A stretch of 35,062 nucleotides of DNA from a virus. Lineage: Duplodnaviria; Heunggongvirae; Uroviricota; Caudoviricetes. The DNA is taken from the IMG/VR virus record IMGVR_UViG_2548876964_000015, positions 1 through 35,062 of that record. One strand, 5' to 3'. The position numbers and the translations under genes were made by a program. Shown here piece after piece: positions 86-2,274 of this stretch; within the stretch, counting starts at the first letter, position 1; every line of letters starts with the position of its first letter. The notes below the pieces were generated by a model. The model saw only the letters and a program-made list of their open reading frames with translations. It did no database searches and had not been told where the DNA came from.

Positions 86-172
86 GGGGAGTTAGTCCGT
101 AGGGGTAGCGGGGTAGACTGTAAATCTACTGTCATTGCGACTCGGGTGGTTCGACTCCATCACTCCCCACCA
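86..172 (+). tRNA. Type-II (long variable arm) tRNA-like gene, anticodon GTA (Tyr-like); D-arm irregular
   Basis: Acceptor 86-92 GGGGAGT pairs with 162-168 ACTCCCC; perfect anticodon stem GTAGA/TCTAC with loop CTGTAAA (GTA at 120-122); 15-nt variable arm; T-loop TTCGACT; CCA at 170-172. The D-arm does not fold canonically, so it may be a pseudo-tRNA. Confidence 0.5.
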
Positions 173-176
173 CATT

Positions 177-252
177 GCCGATTTAGCTCAGTTGGTAGAG
201 CAGTCGCTTTGTAAGCGAATGGTCAGCGGTTCGATCCCGTTAATCGGCACCA
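177..252 (+). tRNA. tRNA-Thr (anticodon TGT)
   Basis: Acceptor 177-183 GCCGATT pairs with 242-248 AATCGGC; D-stem GCTC/GAGC; anticodon loop TTTGTAA (TGT at 210-212); T-loop GTTCGATCC region; CCA at 250-252. Confidence 0.8.
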
Positions 253-257
253 ACATA

Positions 258-330
258 ACAGGTAAGAGCATTCTCCCTTATGGGGCCTGGCTTAAATGCA
301 TCGAGTGCTCTTACCGTTGTGATGAAGTGC
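258..330. repeat. Hairpin unit copy 1 (10-bp stem GGTAAGAGCA / TGCTCTTACC, 261-270 with 306-315)
   Basis: Shares the 20-nt block ACAGGTAAGAGCATTCTCC and the tail CCGTTGTGATGAAGTGC with the copy at 899-990. Confidence 0.45.
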
Positions 331-599
331 AGATCTTAGAAGCAACCAGAAGATAAGCATCTGGCTTCACAACATAAACCGCAGGAACGACCAATAAACG
401 GTAGTCCGTATGGAGAACACCCCGTTGAGGAAGAGGCCTGGCCGGAACCGTAACCGGCGACTGGTAATGTGTGTAAATGGAGCGAAATATGTGGGCGTTT
501 AACGGGATACGGGTTGTAACAGCGATTATTAACGGCGAACTTAAGTATTCACGTTTCGAGACAAATGAACGTGATGGGAAATGTATTGGTGTGCGGTTA

Positions 600-725
600 G
601 TAAGAGAATACGCATAACAACTACAACGTTGAGAACACTGGCGTAACGGGGTCATATCCCAATCTACGAATAAATGTTGCGTTGCCGCGTGACAACCAGT
701 GTTCTCAACATTGTGGTGAATGCAC
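600..725. repeat. Hairpin unit copy 2 (14-bp perfect stem GTTGAGAACACTGG / CCAGTGTTCTCAAC, 628-641 with 686-699)
   Basis: Loop carries GTAACGGGGTCATATCCCAATCTAC, also present at 922-946; tail CATTGTGGTGAATGCAC resembles the tails of copies 1 and 3. Confidence 0.45.
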
Positions 726-898
726 AGGCTGATGTGCCGCAACTACAGTAGTGCGCGCTTTGCGGGGCTTGCTACAACCCTGTGTCGGAGTTCAGCACCG
801 ACCATCACAGTTTGATTCTCTGGCATGAGCATAACGCTGAAATAAGTCCAGTCTGGTGCGGTCTGATCACCCGCCGTTAGCTCCACGAAACGGAGCAC

Positions 899-990
899 GT
901 AACAGGTAAGAGCATTCTCCTGTAACGGGTTCATATCCCAATCTACAGGTCCACCAAGAATGCTCTTTCCGTTGCGGTGAATGCGGCTAA
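899..990. repeat. Hairpin unit copy 3 (11-bp stem AAGAGCATTCT / AGAATGCTCTT, 908-918 with 957-967)
   Basis: Same 5-prime block as copy 1 and same loop block as copy 2; tail CCGTTGCGGTGAATGCGG. Confidence 0.45.
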
Positions 991-1125
991 GCGCACGCGG
1001 GGAAATGGTTATATCTGTCCATTATTTCTCCTTGTTTCCACGTCCACGGTGGATAACCAGCCAAAGGACACCGGGAGGAACCCGGCACCGCAGCTTTTTT
1101 ATTCGTTAAATAATGGAGTGAGAGG

Positions 1126-1344
1126 ATGCAGAACAATCCGAACAAATGTCGAACGCTATGGGTGCGGTTATATATTTATGCCGTCCTCTGTTTGATTGTG
1201 TCACTGGTTCTGTATGTTTGGCTTTTGCCAAATATGATCTCATCTAACAGCACAATACTTGTATTGTTGGGAGTCCTTCTCGCGCTCATTTACCCGGCTT
1301 TCGCAGTAGTCTTTTTTCGTGAAAAAAACCAGGAAATTAATTAA
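1126..1344 (+). CDS. Small hydrophobic membrane protein (72 aa, two predicted helices)
   Basis: ATG preceded by GAGAGG; strongly hydrophobic sequence; stop overlaps the next start (TAATG), implying translational coupling. Confidence 0.55.
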   Translation: MQNNPNKCRTLWVRLYIYAVLCLIVSLVLYVWLLPNMISSNSTILVLLGVLLALIYPAFAVVFFREKNQEIN

Positions 1345-2171
1345 TGAAAAAAACGTTGATTAGTGCAGCGATTATTTTGGGTTCTTTATGTCTGACCGGA
1401 TGCGATCGGGTAGAGCCAGGTAACGTAGGGATCAAAGTAAATAAGCTGGGGGATGATAAAGGTATCGGTGAAGTAGTTGGCGTTGGTCGCTACTGGACAG
1501 GCTTGAATACTGAAGTTTATATCTTCCCGACCTTTAAGCAAATGAAGACATACGATGAGCCGTTCAGCTTCCAGATGAGCGACGGAACAACCATTGGTTA
1601 CCACATCGGCGTAGCCTACAAGGTTGATCCAGCAAAAGTCACAACGGTATTTCAGACCTATCGCAAAGGTGTAGATGATATTACTGATACCGATCTACGC
1701 CAGAAGGTTGCAGATGCTCTGAACCGATTAGCCAGCAAAATGACCACCGACAAATTTATCGACGGTGGCAAATCTGAATTGCTTGATGCAGCCCTTAAAG
1801 ACATTCAGGAAGAAATGACGCCAATCGGCATTCAGGTGATGAGCCTCTCTTATGTAGGTAAGCCAGAATACCCGCCAACAGTTATTGACAGTATTAACGC
1901 CAAAGTCACGGCAAACCAAAAAACCCTGCAACGCGAGCAAGAGGTCAAACAACGTGAAGCAGAGGCCAACATGCTGCGCGCGGAAGCTGCCGGACAGGCT
2001 GATGCTATTCGCACAAAAGCCCAGGCCGAAGCTGATGCCATTCGTTTACGTGGTGAAGCTCTGCGCCAGAACCCCGGTGTTATGGACTTGGAAGCGATCA
2101 ACAAATGGAACGGTACATTACCGCAGTATATGACCAGTAATACCGCTGTTCCGTTTGTTCCGGTGAAATAA
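1344..2171 (+). CDS. SPFH/band-7 (stomatin-prohibitin-like) lipoprotein
   Basis: N-terminal signal peptide with lipobox LTGC; band-7-like core; C-terminal Ala/Glu/Gln-rich coiled coil. Domain call by eye only. Confidence 0.7.
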   Translation: MKKTLISAAIILGSLCLTGCDRVEPGNVGIKVNKLGDDKGIGEVVGVGRYWTGLNTEVYIFPTFKQMKTYDEPFSFQMSDGTTIGYHIGVAYKVDPAKVTTVFQTYRKGVDDITDTDLRQKVADALNRLASKMTTDKFIDGGKSELLDAALKDIQEEMTPIGIQVMSLSYVGKPEYPPTVIDSINAKVTANQKTLQREQEVKQREAEANMLRAEAAGQADAIRTKAQAEADAIRLRGEALRQNPGVMDLEAINKWNGTLPQYMTSNTAVPFVPVK

Positions 2172-2198: not shown

Positions 2199-2274
2199 GG
2201 CCCTTTAGCTCAGTGGTTAGAGCTGGCGACTTATAATCGCACGGTCACCGGTTCAAGTCCGGTAGGGGCCACCA
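2199..2274 (+). tRNA. tRNA-Ile-like (anticodon TAT)
   Basis: Acceptor 2199-2205 GGCCCTT pairs with 2264-2270 AGGGGCC (one G-T); D-stem GCTC/GAGC; anticodon loop CTTATAA (TAT at 2232-2234); perfect T-stem ACCGG/CCGGT; CCA at 2272-2274. Confidence 0.75.

What the first reader, a model, noticed from the sequence alone, without database searches (positions are those of the whole stretch)
253..1000. ORF-free 0.75-kb block of three related hairpin units downstream of the tRNA cluster
Phage genomes are densely coding, yet this stretch has no ORF with a ribosome-binding site. Instead it holds three units, each with a 10-14 bp perfect stem and shared 20-25 nt blocks (ACAGGTAAGAGCATTCTCC, GTAACGGG-TCATATCCCAATCTAC) plus a similar tail (TTGTGGTGAATGC-like). 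Their position after tRNAs and their conserved loops suggest structured small RNAs (antisense regulators or tRNA-like decoys) or protein-binding repeats. I do not recognise them.
Basis: seen in the sequence. Interest (0 to 1): 0.55.

Follow-up and report, generated by a model that had tools for sequence, protein, structure and literature searches.

The report
Phage RNA hairpin cassettes with swappable tips
The "empty" stretch after the tRNA genes of this P1-like phage holds small structured-RNA cassettes from an unannotated family, found in many enterobacterial phages (P1 included), in which a conserved double-stranded stalk carries an exchangeable tip that sometimes resembles part of a tRNA.

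Summary
The three hairpin units are real: 252-330, 620-724 and 896-985, all on the + strand. A covariance model built from the shared frame finds exactly these three in the 35-kb window.

They belong to a large family missing from Rfam 15 and never annotated in RefSeq. It occurs in at least 120 viral contigs, 148 sequenced phages, 628 of 5,426 E. coli genomes and 16 species genomes of Enterobacterales. Carriers include P1-like, lambdoid, T1-like, Vi1-like and 9NA-like phages.

Each unit is a 19-pair imperfect stalk enclosing a payload.
- **Stalk:** 97% of cells are paired, 14 of 19 pairs show double changes, and G-U pairs occur only on the + strand.
- **Payloads:** they are no more alike than shuffled sequence, yet some are individually conserved. 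Some copy tRNA arms, and one is a hammerhead-like core.
- **Orientation:** every tRNA gene within 1 kb is co-oriented with the unit (45 of 45).

In P1 these units are annotated as the minus-strand genes plp and upl, which is probably wrong.

"ORF-free" is not quite right. A lineage-specific 161-nt insert (459-619) carries a 46-codon ORF with a GGAG ribosome-binding site.

Function is inferred, not shown. My best reading is co-transcribed, processed small RNAs whose stalk is a scaffold and whose tip is the effector, possibly a tRNA-part mimic.

The parts
252..330 (+). Unit U1: stalk (5' arm about 254-275, 3' arm about 303-323, tail GAUGAAGUGC) with a 29-nt payload CCCUUAUGGGGCCUGGCUUAAAUGCAUCG. 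It abuts the 3' CCA of tRNA-Thr.
   Evidence: Covariance model R1, 51.4 bits. Fold z = -3.7. The same unit is in Klebsiella phage MK54 at 91.5% identity.
331..375 (+). Hairpin module after U1 (CCAGAAGAUAAGCAUCUGG). It recurs after units in unrelated phages and in E. coli K-12 Qin, with compensatory changes.
   Evidence: Shared with phage PJ16, with L052, L056, L062 and L108, and with K-12 Qin.
376..458 (+). Module M2, ending in the small hairpin GCCGGAACCGUAACCGGC. In other phages it lies directly upstream of a unit.
   Evidence: 89% identical to Citrobacter phage phiNP, where it precedes phiNP unit 1. In P1 it is joined directly to U2.
459..619 (+). Lineage-specific 161-nt insertion between M2 and U2. 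It carries a 46-codon ORF (477-617) with a GGAG ribosome-binding site.
   Evidence: Absent from P1 and most relatives. Present only in phage Ro157c2YLVW and in P1-like plasmids of 47 E. coli genomes, where PGAP calls no CDS. One protein cluster. Matches phrog_8025.
620..724 (+). Unit U2: diverged stalk (GUUGAGAACACUGG / CCAGUGUUCUCAAC) with a 54-nt, two-hairpin payload. The first hairpin carries ACGGGGUCAUAUCCCAAUC.
   Evidence: R1, 41.3 bits. Fold z = -8.2. Five compensatory pairs relative to U3 (read).
722..737 (+). Small 3' hairpin GCACA-GGCUGA-UGUGC, the usual companion of the unit (canonical form GCGCAGGCUGAUGCGC).
   Evidence: Recurs after most units.
738..879 (+). Inter-unit modules. 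Segment 738-821 is uncharacterised and includes the hairpin GUCGG-AGUUCAGCA-CCGAC at 784-802. Segment 822-879 is a conserved pre-unit leader.
   Evidence: Segment 822-916 is 85% identical to Klebsiella prophages, where it follows tRNA-Gly. The two versions differ by single-base indels and compensatory changes.
880..896 (+). Small 5' hairpin GCUCC-ACGAAAC-GGAGC directly before U3. Other units have equivalent hairpins here with different stems and purine-rich loops.
896..985 (+). Unit U3: near-canonical stalk with a 38-nt payload. An outer helix CCUGUA/UACAGG encloses ACGGGUUCAUAUCCCAAUC.
   Evidence: R1, 62.3 bits. Fold z = -4.9. The payload motif is conserved in four lineages while its enclosing helix covaries.
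973..1100 (+). Module resembling STnc100/PasD. It overlaps the U3 tail and ends in a closing stem followed by a U-run.
   Evidence: RF02076 at 38 bits against a gathering score of 47, E = 4e-7. Fold z = -2.3.

Best explanation
The block is a head-to-tail array of small structured-RNA cassettes read on the + strand together with the tRNA genes. In P1 that transcript starts at the C1-repressed ban promoters. In lambdoid prophages the equivalent transcript is the Q-dependent late one, just past the tR' terminator. In T1-like Klebsiella phages it starts at the array's own sigma-70 promoter.

Three cassettes (252-330, 620-724, 896-985) share one design. A conserved 5' arm (CACAAC-A-GG-U-AAGAGCAUUG) pairs with a conserved 3' arm (CAGUGCUCUU-U-CC-GUUGUG, then a GGUGAAUGC tail). 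Together they form a stalk of about 19-22 pairs with a bulged A, and the stalk encloses an exchangeable payload.

Shown here: the units exist, the pairing is selected, it is the + strand that folds, the family is widespread in phages of Enterobacterales, payloads are unrelated between units, and the U2/U3 payload ACGGG-NYCAUAW-CCCAAUC is itself conserved.

Inferred: the stalk is a folding, processing and stability scaffold. It is long enough for a double-strand-specific nuclease such as RNase III, and single-stranded A/U-containing linkers on either side could take RNase E. Processing would yield a stable small RNA that displays its payload. The payload would then act in trans on a host factor common to Enterobacterales. 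For payloads that copy tRNA arms, the action would be mimicry: the mimic's ends are sealed in the stalk, so it could not be charged or used in translation. Payloads would be exchanged between phages by recombination at the conserved arms.
For: **Stalk pairing.** On 129 hits (96 distinct), 97.4% of cells are paired, against 91.1% in shuffles and 37-66% when partners are slid. Fourteen of 19 pairs change on both sides.

**Strand.** Wobble pairs are frequent on the + strand; one column pair has U-G 71, C-G 14 and U-A 6. The + strand scores 41-62 bits against 18-24 for the minus strand. The + strand also folds better.

**Co-orientation.** All 45 units that have a tRNA gene within 1 kb lie on the same strand as it.

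**Transcription context.**
- P1 ban promoters lie upstream on the same strand.
- In an E. coli prophage the order is Q gene, terminator, unit, holin.
- In MK54 a promoter TTGACA-17-TAGATT precedes the unit and two tRNAs.

**Distribution.**
- At least 120 viral contigs.
- 148 phage records, including Ackermannviridae, the 9NA-like Nonanavirus PJ16, and lambdoid, Stx and P1-like phages.
- 628 of 5,426 E. coli genomes.
- 16 Enterobacterales species genomes.

**Payloads.** There are 63 distinct payloads among about 106 units. Median frame identity is 0.79. Payload identity is 0.50, the same as for shuffled payloads.

**Payload selection.** The U2/U3 motif is invariant in four lineages while its enclosing helix covaries.

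**tRNA-arm content.** Nine of 75 payloads match tRNA arms better than any shuffle. One shares CGGGCTCATAACCC with E. coli initiator tRNA metZ. P1's first unit carries GGGUUCGAAUCCCU.

**Ribozyme-like payload.** One payload has a complete type I hammerhead core.

**Recombination at repeats.** Deletion hybrids exist between units.
Against: - I examined no transcript, processing or binding data. Transcription, RNase III or RNase E cleavage and any trans function are all inferences.
- Most payloads (66 of 75) show no tRNA resemblance.
- The U2/U3 motif matches the initiator anticodon arm only in GGG-loop-CCC. It has invariant flanks (AC...AAUC) that tRNA lacks, so it may bind something unrelated to tRNA biology.
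- CRISPRi knock-down over this region in P1 gave no plating defect (PMC10695390), so the units are dispensable in the laboratory.
- Some relatives carry hybrid units whose arms cannot pair (L028, L098, L119). Ro157c2YLVW lost the inner hairpin of U3. Individual units can therefore decay.
- The pair counts were made on an alignment fitted to the model.
Confidence: 0.5

Rival explanations
1. The units act only in cis, as structural spacers. They would be processing signals and insulators that separate tRNAs and sRNAs in an untranslated polycistronic transcript. They might also make it too structured for Rho to load. On this view the payload is tolerated filler with no function of its own.
For: - Units abut tRNA 3' ends (U1 here; D6 tRNA-Ser) and precede sRNA-like modules (STnc100-like).
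- They always lie in untranslated stretches.
- Payload sequences are as different from each other as shuffled ones.
- rRNA operons use the same logic, with long stalks beside spacer tRNAs (established knowledge).
Against: - The U2/U3 payload motif is invariant in four lineages while the helix around it covaries.
- Payloads recurrently contain exact tRNA T-arm or anticodon-arm sequences and a complete hammerhead core.
- Neither pattern is expected of filler. A plain hairpin would do for processing.
Confidence: 0.25
2. The unit is a DNA-level element. The two arms would be terminal inverted repeats of a miniature transposon, or the folded single-stranded recombination site of a cassette system similar to an integron attC site. 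The payload would be the variable centre.
For: - Conserved arms flank a variable centre.
- The stalk base reads ...CACAAC / GTTGTG..., with the AAC and GTT triplets that attC sites have (from memory).
- Units sit in intergenic gaps of unrelated phages, often just after terminators.
- The region is mosaic.
Against: - Pairing depends on G-U (G-T) wobbles on one strand only.
- The strand is always that of the neighbouring tRNA genes, 45 of 45.
- I saw no transposase or integrase gene linked to units in the loci I read.
- What varies is inside the hairpin, not between hairpins as in integrons.
- I did not look for target-site duplications.
Confidence: 0.08
3. The units are decaying relics of tRNA genes whose leader and trailer happened to pair. 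They would have no present function.
For: - T-arm, D-arm-like and anticodon-arm-like pieces occur inside some stalks.
- Units lie in tRNA clusters.
- Some lineages lose or break units.
Against: - No unit of the window gives any tRNA model hit at E up to 10.
- The stalk is far better conserved than any payload and covaries.
- The family spans very different phage groups at more than 90% arm identity, which argues for selection or active spread rather than decay.
Confidence: 0.07
4. The 3' arm is a boxA site (UGCUCUUU). It would load NusB/NusE and make RNA polymerase resistant to Rho on the untranslated tRNA/ncRNA transcript, as in rRNA operons and CRISPR arrays.
For: - The canonical 3' arm CAGUGCUCUUUCC shares ten of eleven bases with the rrnB leader CACUGCUCUUUAAC, read from K-12.
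- A boxB-like hairpin precedes many units.
- boxA elements protect other untranslated arrays (PMC7665894).
Against: - The motif is buried in a 19-pair stalk, whereas boxA is bound as single-stranded RNA (PMC2800207, abstract shown).
- Diverged units keep the pairing but not the motif: U2 has GUGUUCUCAAC, P1 unit A has GUACCCUUACC, and the K-12 Qin copy has GUAUGCUAACC.
- In lambdoid phages the unit lies behind a Q-modified polymerase that needs no boxA.
Confidence: 0.05
5. The stretch encodes proteins on the minus strand: Plp and Upl, as annotated in P1.
For: - ORFs of 143 and 63 codons exist at 311-742 and 743-934.
- The P1 annotation lists them.
- phrog_14500 matches the Upl ORF.
Against: - Neither ORF has a Pfam hit, and the Plp-like ORF has no PHROG hit.
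- P1 plp overlaps tRNA-Thr by 30 nt on the opposite strand.
- The 161-nt insert, which is not a multiple of three, interrupts the frame here.
- The homologous segment in Klebsiella phages differs by single-base indels.
- D6, L080 and others replace parts of the upl region.
- PGAP and the Ro157c2YLVW annotators call no such genes.
- The PHROG families are built from the same annotated P1-like ORFs.
Confidence: 0.03

Closest known systems
rRNA operon processing stalks (RNase III) with neighbouring spacer and distal tRNAs
   Same: - 5' and 3' flanks pair into a long stalk around a structured RNA.
- tRNA genes lie directly beside the stalk in the same untranslated transcript.
- A boxB-like hairpin and a UGCUCUUU motif lie nearby.
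- Some arrays even carry a look-alike of 16S helix 11.
   Different: - The enclosed RNA is 6-176 nt and differs from copy to copy, rather than being a fixed 1.5-2.9-kb rRNA.
- The boxA-like motif is inside the stalk and is not conserved in diverged units.
- RNase III cleavage was not tested.
Bacterial Y RNAs (YrlA): a Ro-binding stem plus a tRNA-like module (from memory; Chen et al. 2014)
   Same: - The stem is formed by the 5' and 3' ends and carries a module that mimics tRNA arms.
- They also occur in phages.
- The architecture is a scaffold plus an effector.
   Different: - No Rfam Y RNA or YrlA hit.
- The stalk sequence is unrelated to the Ro-binding helix as I recall it.
- Most hosts and phages here have no known rsr gene, though I did not check.
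- Most payloads are not tRNA-like.
STnc100 / PasD prophage sRNAs (Rfam RF02076; bioRxiv 10.64898/2026.05.13.724894)
   Same: - Prophage-borne and located near the Q antiterminator and tRNA hits.
- The module at 973-1100 next to U3 resembles STnc100.
   Different: - That module scores below the family threshold (38 against 47).
- The hairpin units themselves give no STnc100 hit.
- The units have no terminator of their own.
Small stable RNAs of the phage T4 tRNA cluster (species 1 and 2) and the DicF-like and C4 RNAs of P1 (from memory; the dicF-like region is annotated)
   Same: They are small non-coding RNAs co-transcribed with phage tRNAs or inside the same operon, and are released by host RNases.
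   Different: - No sequence or model similarity was found.
- None of them is known to have a conserved stalk with exchangeable payloads.
GOLLD and ROOL, large ornate RNAs found next to tRNA genes in prophages (Rfam; 10.1101/2024.12.08.627333, listed)
   Same: They are non-coding, phage-associated, tRNA-adjacent and of unknown function.
   Different: - They are single RNAs of 500-800 nt found in other phyla.
- No Rfam hit here.
- The present region is a mosaic of modules of about 80-110 nt.
UG27 reverse-transcriptase ncRNA arrays in prophages (bioRxiv 10.64898/2026.09.22.753630)
   Same: Both are arrays of hairpin ncRNAs in prophages that are conserved in structure but diverse in sequence.
   Different: - Those arrays sit beside a reverse transcriptase and template cDNA.
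- I saw no reverse transcriptase beside the units.
- Here the stalk is conserved in sequence and only the tip varies.

Membership tests
Any Rfam 15 family (4,227 models) | A match to a curated covariance model at or above its gathering score | tested here: not met
   Within 253-1000 nothing reaches threshold. The only hits are a chance-level mir-142 match on the minus strand and the start of the sub-threshold STnc100 hit. Seventeen related loci (145 kb) give only tRNA at gathering score.
STnc100 (RF02076), for module 973-1100 | Score at or above the 47-bit gathering threshold over the whole 206-position model | tested here: inconclusive
   38 bits, E = 4e-7, covering model positions 31-147 only.
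tRNA gene or pseudogene | A cloverleaf detectable by ARAGORN or RF00005 | tested here: not met
   ARAGORN finds only the four annotated tRNAs. There is no tRNA model hit in 253-1125 at E up to 10. Payload matches are limited to single arms of 14-19 nt.
boxA (Nus factor) antitermination site | Core sequence GCUCUUU(A) | tested here: inconclusive
   Present in U1 (UGCUCUUA) and U3 (UGCUCUUU), and matches the rrnB leader. Absent from U2, P1 unit A and the K-12 Qin copy.
boxA (Nus factor) antitermination site | The motif is single-stranded and conserved as sequence | tested here: not met
   It forms the 3' strand of the stalk, and it is the pairing rather than the motif that is preserved.
RNase III processing stalk | About two turns of mostly continuous double-stranded RNA | tested here: met
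   19 modelled pairs plus further inner pairs, with one bulge and one 1x1 mismatch.
RNase III processing stalk | Staggered cleavage by RNase III in vivo or in vitro | not testable with these tools
   No cleavage data were available.
Integron attC site | R''/R' boxes RYYYAAC / GTTRRRY at the stem base (from memory) | tested here: inconclusive
   ACACAAC / GTTGTGG has the AAC and GTT triplets but departs at the central position (read).
Integron attC site | An integron integrase and ORF cassettes lying between sites | tested here: not met
   No integrase lies next to units in the annotated loci. The variable part is inside the hairpin.
MITE or transposon terminal inverted repeats | Strand-symmetric inverted repeats, with no preferred orientation relative to transcription | tested here: not met
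   G-U wobbles on one strand only. Co-orientation with tRNA genes in 45 of 45 cases.
MITE or transposon terminal inverted repeats | Target-site duplications and matched empty sites | not tested
   I did not look for them.
Protein-coding genes plp and upl of P1 | A reading frame kept among homologues and support from a protein family | tested here: not met
   The frame is broken by the 161-nt insert and by single-base indels. No Pfam hit. P1 plp overlaps tRNA-Thr.
Hammerhead ribozyme type I (RF00163), for the payload of L025 only | Score at or above 34 bits with an intact catalytic core | tested here: inconclusive
   28.7 bits over the full model. CUGAAGAG...CGAAAC...GUC core and all three stems are present.

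The most novel reading that the evidence does not exclude
Phages of Enterobacterales share a universal 'RNA display' cassette. The conserved stalk seals the ends of a payload RNA so that it cannot be aminoacylated or enter translation. Payloads include tRNA T-arms, an initiator-like anticodon hairpin, nearly whole tRNA-like bodies and a ribozyme. Exposed in this way, a payload would act as a decoy or inhibitor for host tRNA-targeting immunity or RNA-processing enzymes. Payloads would be swapped between unrelated phages by recombination at the stalk arms, which would make this an RNA counterpart of gene cassettes evolving under an arms race.
Probability: 0.15. Interest if true: 0.85.

Novelty: new variant of a known kind. 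Interest (0 to 1): 0.66.

Why it matters
**Scale of the gap.** The family sits in the model phage P1, in E. coli K-12's Qin prophage (a diverged copy), in Stx phages, and in about one E. coli genome in nine. It has no Rfam entry and no RefSeq annotation. In P1 it is annotated as two protein genes.

**Immediate use.** Recognising it corrects those annotations. It also accounts for a class of "ORF-poor" gaps next to phage tRNA genes.

**An unusual design.** The sequence-conserved stalk paired with hypervariable payloads that are nevertheless individually selected is rare among bacterial RNAs. It points to a shared host partner plus diversifying selection on the tip.

**If the tRNA-mimic reading holds.** It would add a third phage strategy, alongside replacement tRNAs and protein inhibitors, for dealing with tRNA-targeting host defences. 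That idea is directly testable in P1.

Tried and rejected
- **Rfam.** Scans of the window and 27 related loci found no family for the units.
- **Full-text sequence search.** Searching for the arm sequences returned nothing.
- **Topic searches.** Searches on P1 ban operon RNAs, phage tRNA mimics or decoys, and tRNA-adjacent structured RNAs found no description of these units. The P1 genome paper is not held.
- **Antisense targets.** No significant complementarity of payloads or inter-unit modules to the rest of the window.
- **boxA/Nus site.** An attractive match to rrnB, but the motif is paired and is lost in diverged units.
- **Minus-strand coding (plp, upl).** Rejected on frame breaks, the overlap with a tRNA gene and the lack of family support.
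- **The 46-aa + strand ORF.** It has one tiny protein cluster and occurs only in one P1-like lineage. Its reality is undecided.
- **Whole-tRNA origin of payloads.** Only single arms match. The Magnus payload aligns to a tRNA-Sec model at a non-significant 11.9 bits.
- **Non-enterobacterial genome hits.** Five pattern hits have no unit and fit chance expectation. Two further contigs that do carry units, binned to Martelella and Geobacteraceae, are probably contamination.
- **RNase III data for K-12.** A literature search around the Qin copy found nothing usable.
- **Covariance search with filters off.** It truncated hits with long payloads, so I used default filters instead.
Full report
**Setting**

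The window starts inside a tRNA cluster: Asn 6-80, Tyr 86-172 and Thr 177-252. It is more than 98% identical to the P1-like phage vB_EcoM-Ro157c2YLVW and about 97-98% identical to P1 over the shared parts. In P1 this cluster lies in the ban operon. The C1-controlled promoters P1ban and P2ban and a dicF-like region lie upstream on the same strand. The operon runs on through tRNA-Ile to ban. Here the P1 tciABC genes are replaced by a 72-aa membrane protein and an SPFH/Band-7 lipoprotein at 1126-2171.

**Checking the observation**

The 25-nt block occurs twice against zero expected by chance. Each unit folds significantly better than shuffles on the + strand, and better than its reverse complement.

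The shared 5' and 3' blocks are the two arms of a single stalk. I built a covariance model from 31 frames with the inner part replaced by a tetraloop. It finds exactly three units in the 35-kb window, at 252-330, 620-724 and 896-985. The only other hits are weaker minus-strand shadows of the same units.

The "ORF-free" claim needs two corrections.
- ORF 477-617 (+, 46 aa) has a GGAG six bases upstream of its ATG.
- P1 annotates the homologous stretch as the minus-strand genes plp and upl.

**Anatomy of the block**

From left to right:
- U1 abuts the CCA end of tRNA-Thr.
- A small hairpin module follows (331-375).
- Module M2 (376-458) ends in a small hairpin.
- A 161-nt insertion (459-619) is found only in this lineage.
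- U2, with a diverged stalk.
- The small hairpin GCACAGGCUGAUGUGC (722-737).
- About 140 nt of further modules.
- The small hairpin GCUCCACGAAACGGAGC (880-896).
- U3.
- An STnc100-like module that ends in a U-run near 1100.

Every one of these modules except the insertion recurs in unrelated phages in other combinations. The region is therefore a mosaic of small cassettes.

**The family**

Among about 106 extracted units there are 63 different inner sequences. I call these payloads, and they are 33-176 nt long. They sit inside an almost invariant frame:
- 5' arm: CACAACAGGUAAGAGCAUUGA
- payload
- 3' arm and tail: UCAGUGCUCUUUCCGUUGUGGUGAAU
- usually the hairpin GCGCAGGCUGAUGCGC

The frame is preceded either by a small purine-loop hairpin or by a terminator U-run.

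The model finds 129 units in 100 loci. Units or their arms occur in the following collections.
- **Sequenced phages.** 148 records. They include Klebsiella phages related to MK54, Ackermannviridae such as Magnus, a 73-kb E. coli phage, HK629 and HK633, Stx2 phages, and Erwinia, Hafnia, Edwardsiella and Pantoea phages. Full units were confirmed in three of these.
- **E. coli genomes.** 628 of 5,426 complete genomes carry the 41-nt 3' arm and tail. None has an annotated feature there.
- **Species genomes.** 16 Enterobacterales species carry full units. So do two contigs that are probably mis-binned.

P1 itself has three units, at L001 1430-1527, 1656-1760 and 1932-2021. They lie under the annotated plp and upl CDS. 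E. coli K-12 has a diverged copy in the Qin prophage, between cspB and essQ and on the late-gene strand.

**RNA or DNA, and which strand**

- On 96 distinct units, 97.4% of stalk cells form standard pairs. Shuffles give 91.1%, and sliding the partners gives 37-66%.
- Fourteen of 19 pairs show changes on both sides.
- Wobble pairs are common and all lie on the + strand. One pair reads U-G 71, C-G 14 and U-A 6. On the other strand these would be A-C mismatches.
- U2, P1 unit A, the K-12 copy and several others have stalks of quite different sequence that still pair.
- All 45 units with a tRNA gene within 1 kb are co-oriented with it.

The contexts also fit transcription of this strand.
- In P1 the units lie downstream of the ban promoters.
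- In an E. coli prophage the unit lies just past the late terminator, between the Q gene and the holin gene.
- In MK54 it lies downstream of a 10-of-12 sigma-70 promoter and upstream of tRNA-Arg and tRNA-Met, antisense to the tail genes.

One caveat applies. The alignment used for the pair counts was fitted to the model, which favours the modelled structure.

**Not coding**

- Neither minus-strand ORF has a Pfam match.
- The only PHROG match is to families built from the same P1-like ORFs.
- P1 plp overlaps tRNA-Thr on the opposite strand.
- The 161-nt insert breaks the frame.
- Homologues of 822-916 in Klebsiella prophages differ by single-base indels and by compensatory changes.
- Other P1 relatives replace or delete parts of the upl region.
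- CRISPRi knock-down of plp and upl in P1 has no plating phenotype (PMC10695390).

The 46-aa + strand ORF is confined to one lineage and one small protein cluster. PGAP does not call it. I leave it undecided.

**Payloads**

Payloads of different units are no more alike than shuffled sequences: 0.50 against 0.50 on the metric used. Frames share a median 0.79 identity. Payloads are not filler, however.

*The window's own payload.* U2 and U3 both carry ACGGG-NYCAUAW-CCCAAUC. This motif is invariant in four lineages: P1-like U2, P1-like U3, Citrobacter phiNP and its relatives, and the L015 group. The 4-6-pair helix that encloses it covaries, for example A-U to G-C next to the motif.

*Resemblance to initiator tRNA.* In phiNP the motif reads CGGGCUCAUAACCC. 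That is identical to 14 nt of the E. coli initiator tRNA anticodon arm, which I read from metZ. The flanks differ from the tRNA.

*Other tRNA-like payloads.* Nine of 75 distinct payloads match tRNA arms better than any shuffled control, mostly exact T-arms. P1 unit A carries GGGUUCGAAUCCCU. phiNP unit 1 carries two T-arm-like hairpins. The payload of phage Magnus has D-arm-like and T-arm sequences in cloverleaf order, but only a non-significant tRNA-Sec alignment.

*Other structured payloads and neighbours.* One payload (L025) has a complete type I hammerhead core at 28.7 bits, against a threshold of 34. In some arrays the module just 3' of the unit matches 16S rRNA helix 11 with compensatory changes.

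**How it most likely works**

What is shown is a selected + strand fold, a conserved stalk, exchangeable but individually selected payloads, linkage to tRNA transcription units, and spread across many phage types that share only their hosts.

From this I infer the following.
- The units are transcribed with the tRNAs.
- The stalk acts as a folding, processing and stability scaffold. It has the length of an RNase III substrate and is flanked by short single-stranded linkers such as GGUGAAUGC.
- The payload is the effector and acts on a host factor common to Enterobacterales.
- For tRNA-arm payloads, sealing the ends in a stalk would give a mimic that cannot be charged or translated. That would suit a decoy for tRNA-binding or tRNA-cleaving proteins.
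- Recombination at the conserved arms explains payload exchange. It is seen directly as deletion hybrids: U1/U3 in L039, and U2/U3 through the shared payload in L028, L098 and L119.

None of the functional steps has been tested.

**Rivals**

- **Cis-only spacer, insulator or anti-Rho structure.** This is the strongest rival. It fits the contexts, but it does not explain payload conservation or the recurrence of tRNA arms.
- **DNA-level mobile element or attC-like site.** This is disfavoured by the one-strand wobble pairs, the fixed orientation and the absence of a linked recombinase. I did not check target duplications.
- **boxA/Nus site.** The resemblance to the rrnB leader is real. The motif is paired, though, and is lost in diverged units.
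- **tRNA relics and minus-strand genes.** Both are unlikely, for the reasons given above.

**Comparison with what is known**

No Rfam 15 family matches the units. Full-text searches for the arm sequences and for related topics found no description.

The nearest analogues by design are:
- rRNA processing stalks with adjacent tRNAs;
- bacterial Y RNAs, which combine a stem with a tRNA-like module;
- the small stable RNAs of phage tRNA clusters.

The adjacent module at 973-1100 is a sub-threshold relative of STnc100/PasD prophage sRNAs. A recent preprint describes hairpin ncRNA arrays in prophages that are tied to a reverse transcriptase. No such enzyme accompanies these units.

**Verdict**

The units are members of a widespread, unannotated family of phage structured-RNA cassettes. 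I rate it a new variant of a known kind (phage small RNAs co-transcribed with tRNAs), with an unusual design of conserved stalk and hypervariable payload. Function remains to be shown.

Noticed in passing
window 86-172: There is an extra tRNA-Tyr(GUA) between tRNA-Asn and tRNA-Thr, 87 nt long with a long variable arm. P1 and D6 lack it; Ro157c2YLVW has it. Its tRNA model score is lower (41.9 bits) than its neighbours' (66-70 bits).
   Followed up: partly
window 2199-2274: The third tRNA has anticodon UAU (tRNA-Ile). The P1, D6 and Ro157c2YLVW homologues have CAU, the ileX-type that needs lysidine modification. A single C-to-U change at position 34 would remove the dependence on TilS.
   Followed up: no
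window 1126-2171: P1's tciA, tciB and tciC are replaced by a 72-aa membrane protein (phrog_1130) and a 275-aa SPFH/Band-7 lipoprotein (PF01145, phrog_200).
   Followed up: partly
window 459-619: This 161-nt insertion carries a 46-codon ORF (477-617) with a GGAG ribosome-binding site. It occurs only in Ro157c2YLVW and in P1-like plasmids of 47 E. coli genomes, for example O111:H- strain 11128, always at 99% identity or more. Its origin is unknown.
   Followed up: yes
window 973-1100: This module is related to STnc100/PasD (38 bits, below threshold). Its closing stem UGCGGUG/CACCGCA overlaps the 3' strand of the U3 stalk base by a few bases, so alternative pairing is possible. It ends in GCUUUUUU.
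   Followed up: partly
L001 (P1 NC_005856) 1401-1970: The annotated P1 genes plp and upl lie on the minus strand across three hairpin units, and plp overlaps tRNA-Thr by 30 nt. These annotations are probably spurious.
   Followed up: yes
L025 384-430 (IMGVR_UViG_3300011242_000058): One unit's 176-nt payload begins with a complete type I hammerhead core (CUGAAGAG-stem II-CGAAAC-stem III-GUC). It scores 28.7 bits against a gathering score of 34.
   Followed up: partly
L032 4600-4646; L041 1953-1999 (minus strand); also L110 and L083: Modules directly 3' of units match the bacterial SSU rRNA model at positions 237-283 (16S helix 11). They carry compensatory changes relative to E. coli 16S.
   Followed up: partly
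L154 5158-5226, minus strand (E. coli K-12 MG1655 1,641,157-1,641,225): A diverged unit (25.6 bits) lies in the Qin prophage between cspB and essQ. Its 5' arm overlaps a strong Shine-Dalgarno sequence (TAAGGAGGT) plus ATG that opens an 11-codon ORF. A terminator follows about 110 nt downstream.
   Followed up: partly
L039; L028, L098 and L119; L002 2144-2220: Several natural deletion hybrids exist. L039 is a U1/U3 fusion at the 5' arm. L028, L098 and L119 are U2/U3 fusions through the shared payload, which leaves arms that cannot pair. Ro157c2YLVW has lost 13 nt, the inner GGG...CCC hairpin, from U3.
   Followed up: yes
L156 1666-4880 (Klebsiella phage Magnus): A stretch of about 3 kb upstream of the tRNA cluster is annotated with a string of 30-70-codon 'hypothetical proteins'. 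It contains a full unit with a tRNA-like payload, so much of it may be non-coding RNA.
   Followed up: partly
L110 494-560: An int-alpA RNA (RF02996, 44.7 bits, above threshold) lies in the same contig as a unit. I did not examine its position relative to the unit.
   Followed up: no
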